From: the human T2T-CHM13v2.0 reference genome, Homo sapiens
Length of the DNA stretch: 64,000 bases
NCBI GenBank assembly: GCA_009914755.4
Contig: CP068257.2
Coordinates: forward strand, 23,488,001-23,552,000
Direction: 5' to 3'
Shown: piece after piece, positions 6,593-38,710 of the stretch
How positions within the stretch are numbered: position 1 is the first letter of the stretch
Layout: each line of letters begins with the position of its first letter
Program-made: the position numbers and the translations under genes
Notes under the pieces: model-generated
Databases searched by the model: none
Seen by the model: the letters and a program-made list of their open reading frames with translations, nothing else
What the model was told of the DNA's origin: nothing

Positions 6593-6976
6593 TGTATTAG
6601 TCCGTCCTCGCATTGGAATGAGGAACTACCTGAGACTGGGTAATTGATGGAGAAAAGAGGTTTGATTGACTTACAGTTCCGCAGGCTGTACAGGAAGCAT
6701 GACTGGGGAGGCCTCAGGAAACTTACAATCATAGCAGAAGGCCAAGGGGAAGCAGGCTCTTACATGCTGGGAGCAGGAGAGAGAGTGAAGGGGGAGGTGT
6801 TACACACTTTTAAACAACCAGATCTCATGAGAACTCAGTCACTATCGCCAGAACAGCAAGAGCAAAACCAGCACCCCCACAGTGATCCCATCACCTTGCA
6901 CCAGGACCCGCCTCTAACACTGAGGATTACCATTTGACATGAGATCTGGGAGAGGACACAGACTCAAACCATATCA
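6593..6976 (-). mobile_element. Solo ERVL-MaLR LTR (THE1/MST-like), diverged
   Basis: + strand starts tgtattagtccgtcctcgcattg (reverse complement of the LTR 3' terminus ...gaacggactaataca) and ends ...caaaccatatca (reverse complement of TGATATGGTTTG). Internal motifs present: cttacagttccgcaggctg...gcctcaggaaacttacaatcatagcagaaggc...ccagatctcatgagaactcagtcactatc. Confidence 0.8.
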
Positions 6977-13940: not shown

Positions 13941-15640
<1,700 letters not shown>

Positions 15641-15739: not shown

Positions 15740-16886
15740 TAAATAAACAAACAAAAAGCTTTTCTAGGCACATGGTGCAAGCTGTCAGTGGATCTACCAT
15801 TCTGGGGTCTGGAGAACAGTGTCCCTCTTCTCACAGATCCACTAGGCAGTACCCTCGTAGGGACTCTGTGTAGTGGCTTTGACCCCACATTTCCCTTCTG
15901 CACAGCCCTAGCAGAGGTTCTCCATGAAGACCCTGCCCCTGCAGCACACTTTTGCCTGGGCATTCAGGCATTTCCATACATCTTCTGAAATCTAGGTGGA
16001 GGTTCCCAAACCTCAGTTCTTGACTTCTGTGTACCTCAATACTTTCTGTGCAGCCCCAACACCACATGGAAGCTGCCAAGGCTTAGGGCTTCCACCCTCT
16101 GAAGTCACAGCCCAAGCTGTACACTGGCTCCTTGCAGCCTTGGCTGTAGCAGCTGGGACACAAGGCATCAAGTCCCTAGGTGGCACACAGCAAGGGGGCC
16201 CTAGGCCTGGCCCACAGAATCACTTTTTCCTCCTGAGCCTCCAGAACTGTGATGGGAGGGGCTGCAGTGAAGCTCTATGACATGGCCTGGAGACATTTTC
16301 CCCAAGGTCTTGGGAATTAACGTTAGGTTCCTTGCTACTTATGCAAATTTCAGCAGCTGGCTTGAATTTCTCCTAAAAAAACACAGGCTTTTTTTTTTTC
16401 TACTGCATCGTCAGGCTGCAAATTTTCTGAACTTTTATGCTCTGTTTCCCTTTTAAACTTGAATGCTTTTTAACAAAACCCCAGTCACATTTTGAATGCT
16501 TTGCTGCTTAGAAATTTCTTCTGCCAGATACTCAAAATCATCTTTCTCAAGTTCAAAGTTCCACAAATCTCTAGAGCAGGAGCAAAATGCCACTGGCCTC
16601 CTTACAAAAACATAACAAGGATTACCTTTGCTCCAGTTCCCAACAAGTTCCTCAACTCCATCTGAGACCACCTCAGCCTGAACCTTATTGTTCATATCAC
16701 TATCAGCACTTCTTTAATCAAAGCCATTCAACAAAGGGATCTCAAGGAAGTTCCAAACTTTCCCACATTTTCCTGTCTTCTGAATTCTCCAAACTGTTCC
16801 AATCTCTGCCTGTTACCCAGTTCCAAAATTGCTTCCACATTTTCCGGTATCTTTTCAGCAACACCCCACTCTCCATACCAATTTAC
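15740..16886 (-). mobile_element. ERVL-MaLR internal region (THE1/MST-int type, non-coding), antisense
   Basis: Homologous in reverse orientation to the internal regions of the + strand MaLR copies at 23546-25337 and 36901-38359. For example, 16575-16700 (...gcaaaatgccactggcctccttacaaaaacataacaaggattacctttgctccagttcccaacaagttcctc...) is the reverse complement of 23700-23830 / 37050-37200. It leads directly into the LTR at 16887. Confidence 0.75.
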
Positions 16887-17232
16887 CATATTAGTTCATT
16901 TTCATGCTGCTGATAAAGCATATCTGACACTGGGAACGAAAGGAGGTTTAATTGGGCTTACAGTTCCACATGGCTGGGGAGCCCTCAGAATCATGGTGGG
17001 AGGGGAAAGACACTTCTTACATGGTAGTAGCAAGAGAAAAATGAAGAAGTAAAAGCAGAAACCCCTGATAAATCCATCAGATCTCGTGAGACTTACTCAC
17101 TATCACGAGAATAGCATGGCAAAGACTGGCCACCGGGATTCAATTACCTCCCCCTGAGTCCCTCCCACAACACGTGGGAATTCTGGGACATACAATTCGA
17201 GATTGAGGGGGTGACACAGCCAAACCATATCA
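16887..17232 (-). mobile_element. ERVL-MaLR LTR (THE1/MST-like; the 5' LTR of the antisense element)
   Basis: atattagttcattttcatgctgctgataaagcatatctgacactgg...aggtttaattgggcttacagttccacatggctggggagccctcagaatcatggtgggagg...ccatcagatctcgtgagacttactcactatcacgagaatagcatgg...gattcaattacctccccctgagtccctcccacaacacgtgggaattctgggacatacaattcgagattgagggggtgacacagccaaaccatatca. This is the reverse complement of the THE1-type LTR consensus. Confidence 0.85.
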
Positions 17233-22960: not shown

Positions 22961-23190
22961 TAATACCTCCTTATACATTTAGAACACTTTTATGGTATCC
23001 TTCAGCAAATCAGACAAGTTCTGACCACACAGAATTTTAGTTGACTGTATTTGTACAGATCTACCTACTTCTCAGGCCCATGTGTTGTTGGCTTTGTAAA
23101 AATGTTGCCAGTACCCTCTATGAGATGTTGCTCCAGTTCCTCATTGCTGCATGGATGCTTTGGCATTGCAAAACCGTTCTCCAATATGAC

Positions 23191-23545
23191 TGATATGGTT
23201 TGGCTGTGTCCCCACCCAAATCTCATCTTGAATTCTAATTCCCACAATTGCCACGTGTTGTGAGAGATACCAGGTGGGAGGTAATTAAATCATAGTGGTG
23301 GGTCTTTTCCATGCTATTCTCATGATAGTGAATAAGTCTCATGTGATGGTTTTATAAAGAGGAGTTTCCTGGCACATGTTCTCCTCTCTGGTCTGCTGCC
23401 ATGTGAGATGTGCCTTTCACCTTCTGCCATCCTTGTGAGGCCTCCCCAGCCATGTGGAACTGTGAGTCCATTGAGCCTCTTTATTTTGTAAATTACCCAA
23501 TCTCGAGTATGTCTTTATTGGCAATGTGAGAACAGATTAATACAA
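23191..23545 (+). mobile_element. THE1/MST-type MaLR 5' LTR
   Basis: tgatatggtttggctgtgtccccacccaaatctcatcttgaattctaattcccacaattgccacgtgttgtgagagataccaggtgggaggtaattaaatcatagtggtggg...gtgaggcctccccagccatgtggaactgtgagtccattgagcctctttattttgtaaattacccaatctcgagtatgtctttattggcaatgtgagaacagattaatacaa. Confidence 0.9.
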
Positions 23546-25337
23546 TAAATTTGTAGCAGTAGAGTGGGGCACTGCTGAAAAGATTCCCAAAAATGTGGAA
23601 GCAACTTTGGAACTGGGTAACAGGCAGAGGTTGGAACAGTTTGGAGGGCTCAAAAGAAGAGAGGAAAATGTGTGAAAGTTTGGAACTCCCTAGAGATTTG
23701 TTGAATGGCTTTGACCAAAATGTTGGTAATGATATAGACAATGAAATCCAAGCTGAGGTGCTCTCAGTTGGAGATGAAGAACTCGTTGGGAACTGGAGCA
23801 AAGGTGACTCTTGCTATGTTTTAGCAAAGAGACTGGTGACATTTTGCCCCTGCCCTAGAGATTTGTGGAACTTTGAACTTGAGAGAGGTGATTTAGGGTA
23901 TCTGGAAGAAGAAATTTTTTTTTTTTTTTTTGAGATGGAGTCTTGCTCTGTCACCCAGGCTATGGTGCAGTAGTGCTGTCTTGGCTGACTGCAAACTTTG
24001 CCTGTGGGTTCAAGCAATTCTCTACCTCAACCTCCTGAGTAGCTGGGATTATAGGCACCCACCACCACATCTGGTTAATTTTTGTATTTTTAGTAGAGAT
24101 GGGGTTTCACTATCTTGGCCAAGCTGGTCTTGAACTCCTGACCTCATGATCCACCCACCTTGGCCTCCCAAAGTACTGGGATTACAGGCGTGAGCCACCA
24201 CGCCCCACCTGGAGGAAGAACTTTCTAAGCAGCAAAACATTCAAGAGGTGACTTGGGTGCTCTTAAAAGCATTTAGTTTTAAAAGGGAAACAGAGCACAA
24301 AAGTTTGGAAAATTTGCCACCTGACAATGCAATAGAAAAGAAAATCCCATTTTCTAAGGAGAAATTCAAGCTGGCTGCAGAAATTTGCATAAGTAGTGAG
24401 GAGTCAAATGTTAATCAGGAAGACTATGGGGAAAATGTCTCCAGGGCATGTCAGAGAGCTTTGAGGCAGCCCCTCCCATCACAGGTCCAGAGGCCTAGGA
24501 GGAAATAATGGTTTCATGGGCTGGGCCCAGGGTCCGTCTGCTATATGCAGTCTAGGGATTTGGTTCCCTGTGTCCTAGCCACTCCAGCTGTGACTAAAAT
24601 AGGCCAAGGTACAGTTTGGGCCATGGCTTCAGAGGGTGCAAACCTCAAGCCTTGGCAGTTTCCATGCTGTGTTGAGCCTGAGAGTGCACAGAAGTCAAGA
24701 ATTGGGGTTTGGGAATCTTTGCCTAGATTTCAGAGGATGTATGGAAATGCTTGGATGCTCAGGCAGGTTTGCTGCAGGGGTGAGGCTTTCTTGGAAAATC
24801 TCTGCTAGGGTAGTGCAGAAAGAAAATGTGGGGTCAGAGCCCCCACATGGAGTCCCTACTGGAGCACTGCCTAGTGGAGCTGTGAGAAGAGGGCCACTGT
24901 CCTCCAGACCCCAGAATGGTAGATCCACCAACAGCTTGCACTGTGTACCTAGAAAAGCTGTAGACACTCAATGCTGGCCCATGAAAGCAGCCAGGAGGGA
25001 GGCTGTACACTGCCAAGCCATAGAGTGGAGCTGCCCAAAACCATGGGAACTCACCTCTTGCATCAGCATGATCTGGATGTGAGACATGGAGTCAAAGGAG
25101 ATAATTTTGGAGCTTTAAGATTTGACTGCCCCCTGGATTTTGGACTTGCATGGGGCCTTTAGCCCCTTCATTTTGGCCAATATCTCCTGTTTGTAATGGG
25201 TGTATTTATCCAATGCCTGTATCCACATTTTATCTAGGAAGTAATTAACTTGGTATTGATTTTACTGGCTCATTGGCAGAAGGGACTTGCCTTGTCTCAG
25301 ATGAGACTTTGGACTGTGGACTTTTGAGTTAATGCTG
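23546..25337 (+). mobile_element. MaLR internal region (THE1/MST-int), truncated at its 3' end; no 3' LTR follows
   Basis: Collinear and ~85-90% similar to the internal region of the full-length copy at 36901-38359 (for example ...ggaagcaactttggaactgggtaacaggcagaggttggaacagtttggagggctcaaaagaagagaggaaaatgtg...). It ends at ...gactttggactgtggacttttgagttaatgctgaaaaaatac, about 90 bp short of where the other copy's 3' LTR begins. Confidence 0.8.
23915..24206 (-). mobile_element. Alu SINE inserted into the MaLR internal region, with ~14-bp TSD
   Basis: poly-T, then gagatggagtcttgctctgtcacccaggctatggtgcagtagtgctgtcttggctgactgcaaactttgcctgtgggttcaagcaattctctacctcaacctcctgagtagctgggattataggcacccaccaccacatctggttaatttttgtatttttagtagagatggggtttcactatcttggccaagctggtcttgaactcctgacctcatgatccacccaccttggcctcccaaagtactgggattacaggcgtgagccaccacgcccc. 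TSD atctggaagaagaa (23900-23913) and acctggaggaagaa (24207-24220). The uninterrupted copy at 37250 reads ctatctggtagaagacatttctaag. Confidence 0.9.
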
Positions 25338-25622
25338 AAAAAATACCTTTTATGAATTTATCTCTCTGTGGCCTCAATCATTTTGAAAGTTGATTTTTCA
25401 GAATCTTTTCTGGCTTTTCCCCAGATTCCAAGTAATATATAGTCTTTCTCCAAACACTCACCATTACTAGCTGTTTTCTTTACTTACTCTCTTTTCATAC
25501 TCTTCACCAACACCTCCTTCCCAAACCTGGGCTGCCTGCACATGGATCATTCTTTTTTCCTTTTTATATGGTCTGCTGAGAAGGATTATCTGTTTTCTTA
25601 TCTGAATGTGTTTCTTCTCAGG
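25338..25622 (+). repeat. Inverted-repeat arm 1 (~285 bp), right after the truncated MaLR internal region
   Basis: aaaaaataccttttatgaatttatctctctgtggcctcaatcattttgaaagttgatttttcagaatcttttctggcttttccccagattccaagtaatatatagtctttctcc...cccaaacctgggctgcctgcacatggatcattcttttttcctttttatatggtctgctgagaaggattatctgttttcttatctgaatgtgtttcttctcagg is about 90% identical to the reverse complement of 26653-26943. Confidence 0.8.
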
Positions 25623-26652
25623 AATAATTTTCCTCATGATCTCTTGAATATGTTTTTCGTATTGTTGTTAAATAATGTATGATGACTAAATGCCTACATT
25701 TTCTAAGACCAACAAATTTTTATAATTATACACATATTTTTATTTTCTCTTAATGCAAATTTTCAAATGGTCAAATGAAGTAAGAGCCTTGCTCAATTTA
25801 TTGACCTGCACTTTTACTCCTCATCTCTATTCCATGCTGAAGTAGAAGAAATCAAAGGATTTTCATGAAATCCTGTACATGATTTAAAATTGAAAACCTA
25901 TATTTTATATGTAATTTGTGCTTTAGTTTATCATTAAACAAAATATTAATCAATACTTTTTCAATAAAAATTTTGATCCACTTTGGTTCAGAAGCAAATT
26001 TAGAGTCATGTGATGACAATGATCCATGCTTACAGGACTGCTAGTTATATACGGATTATTCCTAACAACTTAACTACTGGTGGTCTTCTTATTATTCACT
26101 ATCCCATACATTTCTAAGTCATGTTCTCCAGCTAATAACAATGAAACTTTCATGTTAATCTTAGCTAAACTTGTTGGGGAAGTTATATCTTCTGGGATGA
26201 AGTAAAAAAAAAGTTATAGAATGTATTTGCAAGCCATATAGAAATAATATGTAGATTTATTAGCTTTGGGCATTGTAACTCACTTTTCCTCTATTGATTC
26301 AAATAATTCAAATAATTATCTGAGACAGTTTCATTAAAAAATAATGAATAAACTCAAAACTCATGGAATTTCTGGATCTAAGTGTAGACTTATAGTAAAG
26401 TTGTAAAATCACCTTGCTTTTGTAGTCTGACCATGATATGCATGGCAACTGGAGGAAACGTTTGAACCAGAATGAAGTGAACAAGCAAAGATTTTATTGC
26501 AATAAGAGATAATAAGAAAAATTCAGTTTTTAAGCTGTTTCTCTGAGCAATAGCCAAGGGCTATAAAAACATGTCTGTTGAGGGGATCATGGAGACAGAA
26601 TGTGGCTGAGAGAGACATGCAATAGAGTCGTTGTATTGGTCCATTTTCACAC

Positions 26653-26943
26653 CCTGAGAAGAAACATATTCAGAAGGGGAAACAGATAATCCCTCTCAGC
26701 AGACCATATAAAAAAGAAAAAAGAACGATCCACGTGCTGGCAGCCCAGGTTTGGGAAGGAGGTGTTTGATGGTGAGGAGTATAAAAAGAGAGTAAGTAAA
26801 CAAAATAGCTAGTAATAGTGAGTATCTGGAGAAAGACCATAAGTTACTTGGAATCTGGGGAGAAGCCAGGAAAGATTCTGAAAAATCAGCTTTCAAAATG
26901 ATTGAGACTACAGAGAGATAAATTCATAAAAGGTATTTTTTTC
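26653..26943 (-). repeat. Inverted-repeat arm 2 (~290 bp), with an adjoining LTR-terminus-like sequence at 26632-26654
   Basis: Reverse complement reads aaaaaataccttttatgaatttatctctctgtagtctcaatcattttgaaagctgatttttcagaatctttcctggcttctccccagattccaagtaacttatggtctttctcc...cccaaacctgggctgccagcacgtggatcgttcttttttcttttttatatggtctgctgagagggattatctgtttccccttctgaatatgtttcttctcagg. Continuing in that orientation it reads gtgtgaaaatggaccaataca, which resembles the MaLR LTR 3' terminus ...gtgtgagaacggactaataca. Confidence 0.8.
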
Positions 26944-31300: not shown

Positions 31301-31414
31301 GCCACCTTTACCTAAATGACTCTAACTTGTCTTTAGAACTCAGCTCAGAGGTCATTTCCTCAAAAAAGTCTTCTGTCACCCCCAGCATTAAATTAAATGT
31401 CTATGTTATACAGT

Positions 31415-31787
31415 GATATGGTTTGGCTGTATCCCAACCTAAATCGCATCTTGAATTGTATAATAATCCCCACATGTCATGGGAGGGCCCTGGTGGGAGG
31501 TAATTGAATCACGATGAGGGTTACCCTCATGCTGTTCTCATGATACTGAGTGAGTTCTCATGAGATCTGATGGTTTTATAAGGGGCTTCCCCTGCTGCTT
31601 TGCTCAGCACTTCCCCTTCCTGCTGCCATGAGAAGAAGAACATGTTTGCTTCCCTTTCCACCATGATTGTAAGTATCCCGAGGCCTCCCCAGACGTGTAG
31701 AACTGTGAGGCAATTAAACCTCCTTTCTTTATAAATTACCTAGTCTCAGGTATGTCTTTATTAGCAGCATGAGAACAGACTAATACA
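31415..31787 (+). mobile_element. Solo ERVL-MaLR LTR (THE1/MST-like)
   Basis: tgatatggtttggctgtatcccaacctaaatcgcatcttgaattgtataataatccccacatgtcatgggagggccctggtgggaggtaattgaatcacgatgagggttaccctcatgctgttctcatgatactgagtgagttctcatgagatctgatggttttataaggggcttcccctgctgc...ccgaggcctccccagacgtgtagaactgtgaggcaattaaacctcctttctttataaattacctagtctcaggtatgtctttattagcagcatgagaacagactaataca. Confidence 0.85.
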
Positions 31788-33660: not shown

Positions 33661-34196
33661 TTTTTAAACTTTAATTTTAATTTCAAGTGCAGGTTTGTTA
33701 CATAGTTAAACTTGTGTTATGGGGGTTTGTTGTACAGATTATTTCATCACCCGGGTATAAAGCCTAGTACACTTTTGTTATTTTACCTGATCCTCTCCCT
33801 TCTCTCACCCTCCATTCTCCAAAAGGCCCCAGTATGTATTGTTCCCCTCTACGTGTTCATTTGTTCTCATCAGTTAGCTCCCACTTATAAGGGAGAACAC
33901 GTAGCATTTGGTTTTCAGTTCCTGTATTAGTTTGCTAAGTATAATATGGCCAAAGGAATATGAATCATTCTATTATAAAGACACATGCACAAGCATGTGT
34001 ATATTTATTGCAGCACTATTCACAATAGCAAAGACATGGAATCAACCTAAATATCTATCAATGATAGACTGGATAAAGAAAATGTACATATACACCATAG
34101 AATACTATGCAACTATAAAAAAAATATGAGATCATGTCCTTTGCAGGAACATGGTTGGAGCTGGAGGCCATTCTCCTTAGCAAATATGAATTTTTT
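33661..34196 (-). mobile_element. L1 3'-end insertion (~535 bp) with 5' inversion: direct segment 33661-33960 (antisense on +), inverted segment 33961-34196 (sense on +)
   Basis: 33661-33960 is antisense L1 3'UTR plus the ORF2 end (tttttaaactttaa...gcaggtttgttacatag...ccccagtatgtattgttcccctctacgtgttcatttgttctcatcagttagctcccacttataagggagaacacgtagcatttggttttcagttcctgtattagtttgctaagtataatatggcc). 33961-34196 is sense L1 (...tataaagacacatgcacaagcatgtgtatatttattgcagcactattcacaatagcaaagacatggaatcaacctaaatatctatcaatgatagactggataaagaaaatgtacatatacaccatagaatactatgcaactataaaaaa..gagatcatgtcctttgcaggaacatggttggagctggaggccattctccttagcaaa), matching the ORF2p tail KDTCT.MFIAALFTIAKTWNQPK...MIDWIKKMWHIYTMEYYAAIK.DE.MSF..TWM.LE.IIL. 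Flanking direct repeat caaatatgaa at 33651-33660 and 34197-34206. Confidence 0.85.
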
Positions 34197-34614: not shown

Positions 34615-35486
<872 letters not shown>

Positions 35487-35573
35487 GAAAGACAAAGAAA
35501 TTTCCAGGGGAAAAAAGAGAGATGAGCATGAAAAAGTTTATTTTAAAAATTATTATTCTAATGTGTATTAGTC

Positions 35574-35916
35574 CGTTTTCACGGTGCTGATAAAGACATA
35601 CCCAAGACTGGGCAATTTACAAAAGAAAGAGGTTTAATTGGACTTATAGTTCCACATGTCTGGGGAAGCCTCACAATCATGGCAGAAGGCAAGGAGGTGC
35701 AAGTCACGTCTTACATGGATGGCATCAGGCAAAGAGAGAACTTGTGCAGGGGACCTCCTTTTTTAAAACCATCAGATCTCATGAGACTTATTCACTATCA
35801 TGAGAACAGCATGAGAAAGACTTGCCCCATGATTCAATTACTTCTCACTGGCTCCCTACCACAACACATTGGAATTCAAGATGAGATTTGGGTGGGGACA
35901 CAGGCAAACCAAATCA
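35574..35916 (-). mobile_element. Solo THE1-type MaLR LTR (antisense)
   Basis: tgtattagtccgttttcacggtgctgataaagacatacccaagactgggcaatttacaaaagaaagaggtttaattggacttatagttccacatgtctggggaagcctcacaatcatggcagaaggcaaggaggtgcaagtcacgtcttacatgg...aaaaccatcagatctcatgagacttattcactatcatgagaacagcatgagaaagacttgccccatgattcaattacttctcactggctccctaccacaacacattggaattcaagatgagatttgggtggggacacaggcaaaccaaatca. This is close to the reverse complement of the THE1 LTR consensus. Confidence 0.88.
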
Positions 35917-36537
35917 CAATGTTTTGCAGAAATCTAGGAAATTTAAGATTTTTCCTCTAATGTTAGATCTGAAGATTTTTCAGTTTAAGGATAAGGTCAT
36001 GAGACAATGTAGTTCTAGAGTTCTCCCCAGACAGAGAGCAAAGGTTATGAACTAATGAATGCCTCTTGTTTTGATAAAATCTCTTCAACCTCACTTCTCT
36101 TGTCAAACAGTGAACTCGGGTATTGTATTAAGACAAAGATGAAAATGTGAAATTGAGACATCACCGTAAATTGTGTGCTTAGAAAGCCTATGAAAGCTTC
36201 ATTCATTGAGTGCAACTTGGACTAGAATGTTGCTTGACGTCCATAGCATGGGGCAACACCCTGTAGCCAATGAAATCTAAATATGATGTCAAATTGTCTC
36301 TGCTCTCTCCATTTTTTAGTTATATCAGGATTTCAAAAAGGTTATCAGTTCCAAGAGGAAATTTATAATAATCTTAAAAGTAATATCTTAAAATAATATT
36401 TTAAGTAATTTACTTAAAAGTAAAGTGAGATATTATTTAACATTATTTAATTCTTGAGATACTTTTTAAGAGATATTATTTATTTAATTCTTAAAGTAAC
36501 TCTAAGAATTAAATATGAAAATGCTAAAACAAGTGGT

Positions 36538-38710
36538 GATATGATTTGGCTTTGTGTTCCTACCCAAATCTCATCTTGTAACTCTCATAATTCTCATAAT
36601 TCCCACATGTTGTGGGAGGGACCCAGTGGAAGATAATTAAATAATGGAAGCAGTTCTTTTCCCTGTGTTGTTCTCATAAGAGTGAATAAGTCTCACTAGG
36701 TTTAATGTTTTTAAAAACAGGAGTTTCCTTGTACAAACTCTCTTATCTGCTGCCATGTGAGACATGCCCTTCACCTTCTGCCATGATTGTAAGGCCTCCC
36801 CAGCCACATGGAACTGTTGAGTCCATTAAACCTCTTTCTTTCGTAAATTGTCCAGTCTCAGGTATGTCTTTATCAGCAGTGTGAAAGCAGACTAATACAG
36901 TAAATTGGTACCAGGAGTGGGGTGTTGCTGAAAAGATACCTGAAAATGTGGAAGTGACTTTGGAACTGGGTAATAGCCAGAGGTTGGAACAGTTTGGAAG
37001 GCTCAGAAGAAGACAGGAAAATGTGGGAAAGTTTGGTACTCCCTAGAGACTTGTTGAATGGCTTTGACCAAAATGCTGATAATGATATAGACAATGAAAT
37101 CCAGGCTAAGGAGGTCTCAGATGGAGATGAGGAACTTGTCGGGAACCAGAGCAAAGGTGACTTTTGTTATGTTTTAGCAAAGAGACTGGCGACATTTTGC
37201 CCATGCCCTAGAGATTTGTGGAACTTTGAACTTGAGAGAGATGATTTAAGCTATCTGGTAGAAGACATTTCTAAGCAGCAAAGCATTCAAGAGGTGACTT
37301 GGGTGCTGTTAAAAGCATTTGGTTTCAAAGAAAAACAGAGCACGAAAGTTTAGAAAATTTGCAGCCTGACAATGCAATAGAAGGGAAAATTCCATTTTCT
37401 GAGAGAAATTCAAGCTGGCTGCAGAAATTTGCATAAGTAACAAGGAGCTATATGTTAAATTTCATAGGCTGGGCCCAGGGTCCCCTTGCTGTGTGTAGCC
37501 TAGGGACTTGGTCCGCTGTGTCCCAGCCACTCCACCCATGGCTAAAAGGACCCAGTGTAGAGCTCAGGCCATGGCTTTGAAGGGTACAAGCCCCAAGCCT
37601 TGGCAGCTTCCACATGATGTTGAGCCTGCAAGTGCACAGAAGTCAATGATTCAGGTTTGGGAACCTCTGCTTAGATTTCAGAGGATGTATGGAAATGCCT
37701 GGATGTCCAGGCAGAAGTTTGCTGTGGGGCAGGGCCCTCATGGAGAAACTATGCTAGGGCGGTGTGGAAGGGAAATGTGGGGTCAGAGCCCCTACACAGA
37801 GTTCCTACTGGGGCACTGCCTAGTGGAGCTCTGAAAAGAGGACCACCATCCTCTAAACCCCAGAATGGTAGATCCATGGATAGCTTGCACTGTACACCTG
37901 GAAAAGTGGCAGACACTCAATGCCAGCCCATCAAAGCTTCTGAGAGGGAGGCTATACCCTGCAAAGCCACAGGGCCAGAGCTTCCCAAGACCATGGAGCC
38001 CACCTCTTGCATCAGCATGACCTAGATGTGAGACATGGAGTCAAAGAAGATCATTTTGGAGCTTTAAGATTTGATGGCCCTGCTGGATTTTTGATTTGCT
38101 TTGGGCCTGTAGCCCCTTTGTTTTGGCCAATTTATCCCATGTAGAATGGCTGTATTTACCCAGCGCTTGTACACCCATTGTATCTAGGAAGTAATTAACT
38201 TGCTTTTGATTTTACAGACTCATAGGTGGAAGGAATGAGACTTTGGACTGTGAACTTTTGAGTTAATGCTGAAATGAATTAAATCTTTGGGGATTGTTAG
38301 GAAGGCATGATTGGTTTTGAAATGTGAGGACATGAAATTTGGGAGATGCCAGGGTGGAAAGATATGGTTTGGCTCTGTGTCCCCACCCAAATCTCATCTT
38401 GTAACTCCCATAATTCCCACGTGTTGTGGGAGGGACCTGGTGAGAGATAACTGAATCATGGGGGCGGGTCTTTCTTGTGCTGTTCTCATGATAGTAAGTC
38501 TCACGAGATCTGATGGTTTTAAAAACTGGAGTTTCCTTTTACAAACTCTCTTCTCTTGTCTGCTGGCATGGAAGACATGTCTTTCAGCTTCCATCATGAT
38601 TGTGAGGCCTCCCCAGCCACATGGAGCTGTAAGTCCTTTAAACCTCTTCCTTTTATAAATTGCCTAGTCTCAGATATGTCTTTATCAGCAGCATGAAATA
38701 AACTAATACA
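36538..38710 (+). mobile_element. Full-length non-autonomous ERVL-MaLR element (THE1/MST-type): 5' LTR 36538-36900, internal region 36901-38359, 3' LTR 38360-38710
   Basis: 5' LTR tgatatgatttggctttgtgttcctacccaaatctcatcttgtaactctcataattc...ggtatgtctttatcagcagtgtgaaagcagactaatacag. 3' LTR agatatggtttggctctgtgtccccacccaaatctcatcttgtaactcccataattcccacgtgttgtgggagggacctggtgagagataactgaatcatgggggcgg...agatatgtctttatcagcagcatgaaataaactaatacag. The internal region is homologous to 23546-25337 and carries only short ORFs. The two LTRs are only ~80-85% identical. The 5' LTR carries a 9-bp tandem duplication (ctcataatt x2). Possible 5-bp TSD agtgg/gatgg. Confidence 0.88.

What the first reader, a model, noticed from the sequence alone, without database searches (positions are those of the whole stretch)
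25338..26943. ~290-bp inverted-repeat pair (about 90% identity, ~1 kb spacer) next to a MaLR copy that has lost its 3' LTR
Arm 1 (25338-25622) and the reverse complement of arm 2 (26653-26943) align over their whole length. Both begin aaaaaataccttttatgaatttatctctctg and run through ...cccaaacctgggctgcc.gcac.tggatc.ttcttttttc.tttttatatggtctgctgaga.ggattatctgttt...ttcttctcagg. The MaLR internal region at 23546-25337 stops about 90 bp short of where its 3' LTR should start, and arm 1 begins exactly there. Arm 2 continues (in arm orientation) into gtgtgaaaatggaccaataca, which resembles an MaLR LTR 3' terminus. The arms could be two copies of an older MaLR-type LTR in opposite orientations, with a deletion that removed the THE1 3' LTR. 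Alternatively they could be an inverted duplication or the remains of an inversion breakpoint. Either way the locus can form a large hairpin or cruciform and is a plausible rearrangement hotspot.
Basis: seen in the sequence. Interest (0 to 1): 0.5.

Follow-up and report, generated by a model that had tools for sequence, protein, structure and literature searches.

The report
Old 1-kb inversion scar with duplicated ends
The inverted repeat is real, but it is most likely an ordinary scar of one old small rearrangement in a primate genome that flipped about 1 kb next to a THE1/MaLR retrotransposon, copied about 290 bp at one edge and deleted about 420 bp at the other; it is not a pair of old LTRs and not a present-day fragile site.

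Summary
Arm 1 (25338-25622) and the reverse complement of arm 2 (26653-26942) are 91% identical over 285 aligned bases (K2P 0.095), and the spacer is 1,030 bp. This is the only inverted pair in the window above 86%.

The arms are not MaLR LTRs: they match a MaLR profile no better than shuffled copies do. The 21 bases next to arm 2 (26632-26652, minus strand) are a real, orphaned MaLR LTR 3' end. They are followed by ACGAC, which matches the ATGAC in front of the THE1 5' LTR at 23191 (4 of 5, typical for MaLRs in this window). So the spacer is the THE1 element's original 3' flank, now inverted.

Two new junctions (25337|25338 and 26652|26653) explain the whole structure:
- a 1-kb inversion;
- a ~290-bp inverted duplication at the far breakpoint;
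- a ~420-bp deletion of the THE1 internal tail and most of its 3' LTR.

This is the known "delINVdup" pattern, produced by staggered breaks or template switching. On the local clock it happened at about half the age of a neighbouring MaLR insertion, roughly 20-50 Myr ago.

The cruciform or hotspot claim is weak: 9% arm divergence, a 1-kb spacer, and a longest identical run of about 32 bp. No outgroup genome or Dfam library was available. Interest is low.

The parts
23186..23190 (+). 5' target-site duplication of the THE1-like element (ATGAC)
   Evidence: It lies directly in front of the LTR start TGATATGG at 23191. It matches ACGAC beside the orphan LTR end 4/5. True TSD pairs in this window score 3-4/5 and mismatched pairs 0-3, mostly 0-1.
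23191..23544 (+). THE1/MaLR 5' LTR
   Evidence: It aligns to six other MaLR LTRs in the window at 63-84% identity. Its start and end motifs were found.
23545..25337 (+). THE1/MaLR internal region, cut 87 bp before its 3' LTR; it carries an Alu insertion at about 23915-24208
   Evidence: It aligns to the intact copy 36537-38274 up to '...gagttaatgctgaaa'. The intact copy runs on for 87 bp and then into its 3' LTR at 38360/38361.
25337..25340 (.). Junction J1 (THE1 internal | arm 1), with 3-4 nt of microhomology (G)AAA
   Evidence: The THE1 reference reads gctgAAAtgaatt and arm 2's outer context reads caaaGAAAAAAAtacc. The junction reads gctgAAAAAAtacc.
25338..25622 (+). Arm 1: one copy of the ~290-bp duplicated segment, contiguous with the inverted spacer
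   Evidence: It is 91% identical to the reverse complement of arm 2. It has no MaLR similarity.
25623..26626 (-). Spacer: the ancestral 3' flank of the THE1 element, now inverted relative to it
   Evidence: Its right end carries the THE1 3' LTR terminus and TSD in reverse orientation. It has no repeats, tandem repeats, Pfam or Rfam matches.
26627..26631 (-). 3' target-site duplication of the THE1-like element (ACGAC on the minus strand)
   Evidence: It follows the LTR terminus directly on the minus strand and matches ATGAC at 23186-23190 4/5.
26632..26652 (-). Orphan last 21 nt of the THE1 3' LTR (GTGTGAAAATGGACCAATACA)
   Evidence: It has 3 mismatches to the MaLR terminal consensus; 6 such matches occur in the window against 0.00 expected, and the other 5 sit at true LTR ends. 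nhmmer aligns it to profile positions 331-358 of 360. Two of its differences from the 5' LTR end are CG>TG versus CG>CA decay at one site.
26652..26653 (.). Junction J2 (reverse-complemented LTR end | arm 2), blunt, with no microhomology
   Evidence: Arm homology stops exactly at 26653, because arm 1 ends ...ttcttctcagg and continues into different sequence.
26653..26942 (-). Arm 2: the second copy of the duplicated segment, contiguous with the uninverted downstream sequence

Best explanation
This is a fixed scar of an old, small inversion-type rearrangement of the known 'delINVdup' class, meaning a deletion, an inversion and an inverted duplication together. The inferred ancestral order was: flank - ATGAC - full THE1/MaLR (5' LTR, internal region, 3' LTR) - ATGAC - [sequence now at 26626->25623, read backwards] - [one copy of the arm, as at 26653-26942] - downstream sequence. 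One event then formed two new junctions. J1 joined the THE1 internal region (25337) to the far end of the arm, using 3-4 nt of microhomology. J2 joined the last 21 nt of the 3' LTR to the near end of the arm, as a blunt join. Three things followed. About 1,030 bp (LTR end + TSD + flank) was inverted. The ~290-bp arm ended up on both sides in opposite orientation. About 420 bp (87 bp of internal tail plus about 333 bp of LTR) was lost. Two mechanisms give this product and cannot be told apart from the sequence: staggered breaks with fill-in and end joining, or two replication template switches (FoSTeS/MMBIR). The arms have since diverged neutrally by 9.5%. The structure has no indicated function. 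Shown here: the repeat, the truncation, the orphan LTR end, the TSD match, and the arms' lack of MaLR similarity. Inferred: the ancestral order, that a single event produced the structure, and the date.
For: 1) The repeat is 91% identical over 285 nt, E = 2e-92. 2) The THE1 internal region stops 87 bp before its LTR, exactly at arm 1's outer edge. 3) An orphan MaLR LTR 3' terminus lies exactly at arm 2's inner edge on the opposite strand; chance expectation is 0.00 in the window. 4) The 5 bp after it (ACGAC) match the 5 bp before the 5' LTR (ATGAC) 4/5. True pairs in the window score 4, 3, 3, 4 and 4; all 20 mismatched pairs score 0-3 and average about 1.3; these two flanks score 0-1 with every other partner. 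5) The missing ~420 bp is not elsewhere in the window; all other MaLR LTRs have their own ends. 6) The arm body matches the MaLR LTR and int tail no better than shuffles do. No further copy was found in this 64-kb window or in 262 kb of primate-like contaminant contigs, where the THE1 LTR found 5 loci. The arm 24-mer is absent from a metagenome collection that holds at least 120 Alu-bearing contigs. 7) Only two novel junctions are needed, and J1 has (G)AAA microhomology. 8) Precedent exists. delINVdup is a recognised complex-SV class (PMC5338099); an example with a ~600-bp deletion and ~930-bp duplication was attributed to template switching (PMC5829575). In Drosophila, 17 of 29 inversions carry inverted duplications of non-repetitive sequence, with median size 321 bp and mean identity 88%, often at one breakpoint only (PMC1885836). 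9) On the local clock, arm K2P is 0.095 against 0.176 between the two LTRs of the neighbouring intact MaLR, so the event is later than the MaLR insertions, as the model requires.
Against: No outgroup or orthologous sequence could be obtained, so the ancestral order rests on a 21-nt LTR end and a 4/5 TSD. No Dfam or RepeatMasker library was available, so the arm could still belong to a low-copy or very old repeat family that was not tested; only THE1/MST LTRs from this window were used as the profile. The orphan terminus differs from the 5' LTR end at 6 of 21 positions, which is somewhat more than the ~18% LTR-LTR divergence of the neighbouring copy would predict, although within sampling noise. 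The sequence cannot distinguish a single event from a multi-step history. J2 has no microhomology, so a pure MMBIR reading is not specifically favoured.
Confidence: 0.72

Rival explanations
1. Two-step history. First, an inverted copy of the arm was inserted into the THE1 element, replacing about 420 bp and creating THE1int-ARM-LTRend-TSD-flank-ARM(rc). Later, homologous recombination between the two arms flipped the spacer into today's orientation.
For: The final sequence would be identical to what is observed (reasoning). Inversions between inverted repeats by recombination are well documented (discussed in PMC8755829, and PMC5829575).
Against: It needs an extra event and an unusual first step, a duplication inserted inside the THE1 with a deletion. 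It has the same two junctions plus a recombination, so it is less parsimonious. The arm differences are spread evenly and the longest identical run is only about 32 bp, so there is no sign of recent exchange or conversion. This does not exclude a flip soon after the duplication.
Confidence: 0.14
2. One reading: the arms are two independently inserted copies of one older LTR or other transposable-element family in opposite orientation, and an unrelated deletion removed the THE1 3' LTR. That would make this coincidental nesting.
For: An LTR-like terminus adjoins arm 2. Inverted TE pairs of similar geometry are common; this window alone has ten others, including the solo LTR at 35564-35916 facing the LTR at 36537-36899. 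No full TE library could be consulted.
Against: The arm body has no MaLR similarity beyond shuffles. The LTR-like 21-mer is outside the repeat, because arm 1 lacks it. The arms share the same outer and inner limits, and these coincide with the THE1 truncation point and the orphan LTR end. There are no TG..CA ends and no TSDs around either arm. At 91% identity the pair is closer than any TE-derived pair in the window (71-86%). No other copy was found in 64 kb plus 262 kb of primate DNA, while the THE1 LTR hit 6 other places in the window and 5 contaminant contigs. This reading also leaves the 4/5 TSD match to the THE1 5' flank unexplained.
Confidence: 0.08
3. The inverted repeat is an assembly artefact or a chance similarity.
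For: None found. It is considered only because the source of the window is unknown.
Against: E = 2e-92 within the window. The arms differ at 25 substitutions plus indels spread along their length, which a mis-joined single-copy region would not show. The transition:transversion ratio of 21:4 is typical of real neutral divergence.
Confidence: 0.01

Closest known systems
delINVdup complex structural variants in human genomes (CNV-flanked inversions; Collins et al. 2017, PMC5338099; Frith & Khan 2018, PMC5829575)
   Same: An inverted segment has a deletion at one breakpoint and a duplication at the other, and the deleted and duplicated sequences are unrelated. The sizes match the published long-read example (~600-bp deletion, ~930-bp duplication; here ~420 and ~290 bp). 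Only two novel junctions are involved.
   Different: The published cases are polymorphic or de novo variants identified against a reference genome. This one is old (about 9.5% arm divergence), apparently fixed, and was inferred without an outgroup from a split retrotransposon.
Inversions flanked by inverted duplications of non-repetitive sequence, staggered-break model (Ranz et al. 2007, PMC1885836)
   Same: The duplicated sequence appears non-repetitive and lies in inverted orientation at the two ends of the inverted segment. The duplication size (~290 bp against a median of 321 bp) and copy identity (91% against a mean of 88%) are similar, and the duplication comes from only one breakpoint, as in 12 of their 18 cases.
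   Different: Those are Drosophila chromosomal inversions visible cytologically. Here the inverted segment is only about 1 kb, in a primate, and a deletion accompanies the other breakpoint.
Coincidental inverted pairs of transposable elements (inverted Alu, LTR or L1 pairs)
   Same: The geometry is the same: arms of a few hundred bp with a spacer of a few kb or less. The window contains ten such pairs.
   Different: TE pairs end at natural element termini, each copy has its own TSD (for example cattg/catta for the solo LTR at 35564-35916), and their identity reflects family divergence (71-86% here). The arms here are not recognisable TEs, end at rearrangement junctions and are 91% identical.
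Fragile palindromes and short-spacer inverted repeats (closely spaced Alu IRs in yeast; Lobachev laboratory, PMC10164571)
   Same: There are two arms of about 300 bp in inverted orientation that can pair in single-stranded nucleic acid (270 arm-to-arm pairs in the predicted fold).
   Different: Fragility in duplex DNA needs near-identical arms and spacers of tens of bp. Going from 12 to 100 bp lowers recombination about 300-fold, and a 1.5-kb spacer lowers gross-rearrangement rates about 31-fold. Here the spacer is 1,030 bp and the arms are 9% diverged.

Membership tests
delINVdup / inversion with breakpoint duplication | A segment is inverted relative to the ancestral order | tested here: met
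   The THE1 3' LTR terminus and TSD lie on the opposite strand, 1.3 kb from the truncated THE1 body. This is indirect: no outgroup sequence was available.
delINVdup / inversion with breakpoint duplication | Two copies of one sequence lie in inverted orientation directly next to the inverted segment | tested here: met
   The arms at 25338-25622 and 26653-26942 abut the 1,030-bp inverted segment on both sides.
delINVdup / inversion with breakpoint duplication | Ancestral sequence is lost at the other breakpoint | tested here: met
   Compared with the intact copy at 36537-38710, 87 bp of the internal tail and all but 21 nt of the 3' LTR are absent, and they are not elsewhere in the window.
delINVdup / inversion with breakpoint duplication | The duplicated sequence was single-copy before the event, not a dispersed repeat | tested here: inconclusive
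   No other copy was found in the window, in 262 kb of primate-like contigs or as exact 21-27-mers in three collections. These tests have low power and no Dfam library was available.
delINVdup / inversion with breakpoint duplication | All parts arose in one mutational event | not testable with these tools
   This needs orthologous loci from lineages that bracket the event.
MaLR (THE1/MST) LTR, as the identity of the arms | Sequence similarity to MaLR LTRs | tested here: not met
   nhmmer gives no hit for either arm against a 7-copy LTR profile. Smith-Waterman scores are 14-16 against 14.4 +/- 2.2 for shuffles. Older MaLR families (MLT1 and others) were not tested.
MaLR (THE1/MST) LTR, as the identity of the arms | TG...CA termini and a 5-bp target-site duplication around each copy | tested here: not met
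   The arms begin AAAAAATACC and end ...TTCTCAGG. Their flanks (gctg|..|aataa and caaa|..|gtgtg) show no duplication.
THE1/MaLR retrotransposon (element 23191-25337 plus 26632-26652) | LTR and internal-region similarity, a terminal ...AATACA, and a 5-bp TSD | tested here: met
   The element is 77-84% identical to other copies over the LTR and internal region. The terminus is shown and the TSD (ATGAC/ACGAC, 4/5). The 3' LTR is present only as its last 21 nt.
Inversion by recombination between pre-existing inverted repeats (NAHR) | The repeats existed before the inversion | not testable with these tools
   This needs outgroup genomes.
Inversion by recombination between pre-existing inverted repeats (NAHR) | Long tracts of uninterrupted identity are available for exchange | tested here: not met
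   At present the longest identical run is about 32 bp and differences are spread evenly. The state at the time of the event is unknown.
Cruciform-prone or fragile palindrome | Near-perfect arms and a short spacer (tens of bp) | tested here: not met
   The arms are 91% identical and the spacer is 1,030 bp. The thresholds come from PMC10164571.

The most novel reading that the evidence does not exclude
The pair might still be active rather than a dead scar. If it lies in a transcribed region, the ~290-bp arms would fold into a long double-stranded RNA stem (270 predicted pairs) that could be a substrate for A-to-I editing or small-RNA processing. Alternatively, the 1-kb spacer might still flip between orientations in human or ape populations, for example in long single-stranded DNA tracts, where widely spaced and diverged repeats do interact.
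Probability: 0.05. Interest if true: 0.35.

Novelty: new member of a known kind. Interest (0 to 1): 0.17.

Why it matters
It matters little in itself. It is one more example of a known class of small complex rearrangement, apparently neutral and non-coding. It has two modest values. First, it shows that a conspicuous non-TE inverted repeat can be created by an inversion rather than cause one, the same point made for Drosophila inversions. Second, it shows that a retrotransposon split from its own LTR end and target-site duplication can act as a built-in marker of ancestral order, so an old inversion can be reconstructed from one genome without an outgroup.

Tried and rejected
1) Reaching orthologous primate loci through the protein index failed. 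Exact look-ups of two ORF products from arm 2 and the spacer found nothing, and a homology search with the 66-aa arm ORF found no candidate, so the index does not cover spurious ORFs in this non-coding DNA.

2) Exact-pattern scans were run with arm segments of 21-27 nt: the 24-mer in metagenome contigs and genome contigs, the 21-mer in genome contigs and the 27-mer in viral contigs. None gave a hit. An Alu control showed that viral contigs holds no primate DNA, so that negative is uninformative. Metagenome contigs holds at least 120 Alu contigs, so the negative there is weak evidence against a high-copy family. Genome contigs had no control.

3) blastn of the arms, spacer and upstream flank against the 120 fetched primate-like contigs (262 kb) gave no hits, while the THE1 LTR hit 5.

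4) I had noticed by eye faint resemblances between the arm's 3' 100 bp and the MaLR poly(A)-signal region, and between the arm's start and the THE1 internal tail. These were rejected after shuffle controls.

5) Rfam found no family anywhere in the window. Pfam on 10 ORFs from the arms and spacer gave only sub-threshold chance matches (PhageMetallopep E = 0.022, DUF2417 E = 0.0037, both below the curated cut-offs). No tandem repeats were found.

6) I considered that the orphan LTR end might belong to the other truncated MaLR at 17232-15757 (minus strand). This was rejected: the end lies upstream of that element's 5' LTR and its flank matches only 2/5 by eye (sequences).

7) Aligning the reconstructed THE1 3' join to the intact copy's 3' LTR end by blastn was uninformative, because that copy's terminus is itself diverged. 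The consensus-pattern search was used instead.
Full report
**Context.** The window is primate-like DNA: it carries Alu elements, several THE1/MST-type MaLR retrotransposons and L1 fragments. It has no Rfam family, and the survey of ORFs of 90 aa or more showed no obvious gene.

The repeat finder reports two adjoining inverted blocks, 25338-25512/26767-26941 and 25509-25622/26653-26766. Both are 91% complementary and they are offset by one indel. Gapped blastn gives 260/289 identities with one 4-bp gap, E = 9e-95 pairwise and 2e-92 against the 64-kb window. A global alignment gives 260/285, 21 transitions, 4 transversions and K2P 0.095 +/- 0.017. The spacer is 1,030 bp. Of the 11 inverted pairs of at least 100 nt within 6 kb in the window, this is the only one above 86%. 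The other pairs overlap the Alu, MaLR LTR or L1 copies found by self-comparison and sit at 71-86%.

Compared with an intact MaLR copy at 36537-38710, the internal region of the element that starts at 23191 stops at '...gagttaatgctgaaa' (25337-25340). That is 87 bp before the 3' LTR would begin. Arm 2 does continue, in arm orientation, into GTGTGAAAATGGACCAATACA.

**2. The arms are not MaLR LTRs.** I built a profile from seven MaLR LTR copies in this window. It matches only the ~25 bases beyond arm 2's inner end (profile positions 331-358 of 360), not the arm body. With the arms alone, nhmmer reports no hit. Smith-Waterman scores of the arms against the intact copy's int-tail plus 3' LTR, or against the element's own 5' LTR, are 12-16. 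Dinucleotide shuffles score 14.4 +/- 2.2 and 13.5 +/- 2.0. The faint resemblances I saw by eye are therefore chance.

The arms lack TG..CA ends and have no target-site duplications of their own. No further copy was found in the window. None was found in 262 kb of primate-like contaminant contigs either, where the THE1 LTR hit five loci as a positive control. Exact arm 21-27-mers are absent from three public collections. Only the metagenome negative carries some weight, because that collection holds at least 120 Alu-bearing contigs; IMG/VR holds none. ORFs in the arms and spacer have no protein-family match above cut-off. Within the limits of these tests the arm is unique sequence.

**3. The 21-mer next to arm 2 belongs to the truncated THE1.** The pattern GTGTGAGAACGGACTAATACA, allowing up to 3 mismatches, occurs six times in the window against 0.00 expected from shuffles. 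Five of these are the 3' ends of recognisable MaLR LTRs. The sixth, at 26632-26652 on the minus strand, has no LTR body attached. It lies outside the repeat, because arm 1 ends ...ttcttctcagg and then continues into unrelated sequence.

On the minus strand the terminus is followed by ACGAC. The THE1 5' LTR at 23191 is preceded by ATGAC, a 4/5 match. As a control, the four other MaLRs in the window that have both ends give 3, 3, 4 and 4 out of 5 for their true flank pairs. All 20 mismatched pairings score 0-3 and average about 1.3. The two flanks in question score 0-1 with every other partner. The terminus differs from the 5' LTR end mostly by transitions, including CG>TG in one and CG>CA in the other at the same consensus CpG, as expected for two decayed copies of one sequence.

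So a MaLR lacks exactly its 3' end, and a MaLR 3' end with the matching target-site duplication lies 1.3 kb away on the other strand. Each sits exactly at an edge of the inverted repeat. The simplest reading is that the spacer (25623-26626) is the element's original 3' flank, now inverted.

**4. Reconstruction.** The inferred ancestral order is: ...ttctccaat-ATGAC-[5' LTR - internal region - 3' LTR]-A(T/C)GAC-tctattgcatgtctc... (the reverse complement of 26626->25623), then a single arm (as at 26653-26942), then the downstream sequence.

Today's order needs only two new junctions.
- **J1** (25337|25338) joins the THE1 internal region to the arm's far end. THE1 reads gctgAAAtg and the arm's native context reads caaaGAAAAAAAtacc, so there are 3-4 nt of microhomology.
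- **J2** (26652|26653) joins the LTR's last 21 nt to the arm's near end, with no microhomology.

The arm 1/spacer boundary and the arm 2/downstream boundary are native contiguity.

The net result has three parts:
- an inversion of about 1,030 bp;
- an inverted duplication of about 290 bp;
- a loss of about 420 bp (87 bp of internal tail plus about 333 bp of LTR).

The lost piece is not found elsewhere in the window.

**5. Mechanism.** This is the 'delINVdup' pattern, listed among CNV-flanked inversion subclasses in human genomes (PMC5338099). A long-read survey of human DNA described one case with a ~600-bp deletion and a ~930-bp duplication, and its authors favoured replication template switching (PMC5829575).

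The same product also follows from the staggered-break model proposed for Drosophila. There, 17 of 29 inversions carry inverted duplications of non-repetitive sequence (median 321 bp, mean identity 88%), and 12 of 18 have the duplication from one breakpoint only (PMC1885836). I cannot distinguish these two mechanisms. Microhomology at J1 and a blunt J2 fit either.

A two-step history gives the identical sequence but is less parsimonious: an inverted duplication inserted into the THE1, followed by a recombinational flip.

**6. Date.** Arm K2P is 0.095. The two LTRs of the neighbouring intact MaLR differ by 0.176 +/- 0.019. The event therefore happened at about half the age of that insertion, and after the THE1 insertion, as the model requires. 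With 1.0-2.2e-9 substitutions per site per year this gives about 22-48 Myr. The rates come from general knowledge and are not measured here. Gene conversion between the arms would make the true age older, but the evenly spread differences give no sign of it.

**7. The hairpin and hotspot claim.** As a single strand the region would fold with 270 arm-to-arm pairs. The predicted fold is about 320 kcal/mol (RNA parameters) or 215 kcal/mol (DNA parameters) more stable than a control with one arm flipped. That is true of any inverted repeat.

In duplex DNA, widening the spacer from 12 to 100 bp lowers IR-induced recombination about 300-fold, and a 1.5-kb spacer lowers gross-rearrangement rates about 31-fold. 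Arm divergence lowers the effect exponentially. Widely spaced, diverged repeats become dangerous only inside long single-stranded tracts (PMC10164571). With a 1,030-bp spacer, 9% divergence and a longest identical run of about 32 bp, this locus is no more a hotspot than the many inverted Alu pairs nearby. That it appears to have persisted for tens of millions of years agrees with this.

**8. Verdict.** The second (inverted duplication or inversion remnant) is supported and refined. The feature is a new example of a known kind of rearrangement, apparently neutral, and of low interest.

The main weakness is that there is no outgroup genome and no TE library. The ancestral order rests on a 21-nt LTR end and a 4/5 target-site duplication, although both are well above chance in the controls run here.

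Noticed in passing
window 36537-38710: A full-length THE1/MST-type MaLR with both LTRs (36537-36899 and 38360-38710). LTR-LTR K2P is 0.176 and the flanks are agtgg/gatgg (3/5). It was used here as the reference for the truncated copy and as a local clock.
   Followed up: partly
window 35564-35916 (-) and 36537-36899 (+): A solo MaLR LTR with its own TSD (cattg/catta) lies in inverted orientation about 620 bp from the 5' LTR of the full-length element, forming an 84% inverted pair. This is the ordinary 'coincidental TE pair' that contrasts with the finding.
   Followed up: partly
window 15757-17232 (-): Another MaLR (5' LTR plus internal region) on the minus strand. Its internal region breaks off at 15757 and is followed by an A-rich stretch (aaataaataaacaaacaaaaa). 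The cause of the truncation, whether an insertion or a deletion, was not examined.
   Followed up: no
window 23915-24208: An Alu in minus orientation (T-run first) is inserted in the THE1 internal region. A ~15-bp target-site duplication is still visible (tggaagaagaaattt / tggaggaagaacttt).
   Followed up: no
window 33667-33945 and 35178-35464: A 69-71% inverted pair made of fragments carrying the motif ttagctcccacttataag, which I recognise from memory as the reverse complement of an L1 3'-region motif. Related fragments lie at 2289-2585 and 14377-14580. This looks like ordinary TE debris.
   Followed up: partly
window 31414-31787 (+) and 6593-6976 (-): Two further solo MaLR LTRs. The second has TSD ccagg/cctgg (4/5). 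The first is the most diverged from the THE1 copy (K2P 0.34), so it is probably from an older subfamily.
   Followed up: no
loci L008 and L009 (contigs BNJS01000789.1, 841 kb, and BNJS01002514.1, 44 kb): The 'metagenome' collection contains very long Alu-bearing contigs, so it holds substantial assembled primate (probably human host) DNA. This may be useful as a control or a resource in other sessions.
   Followed up: no
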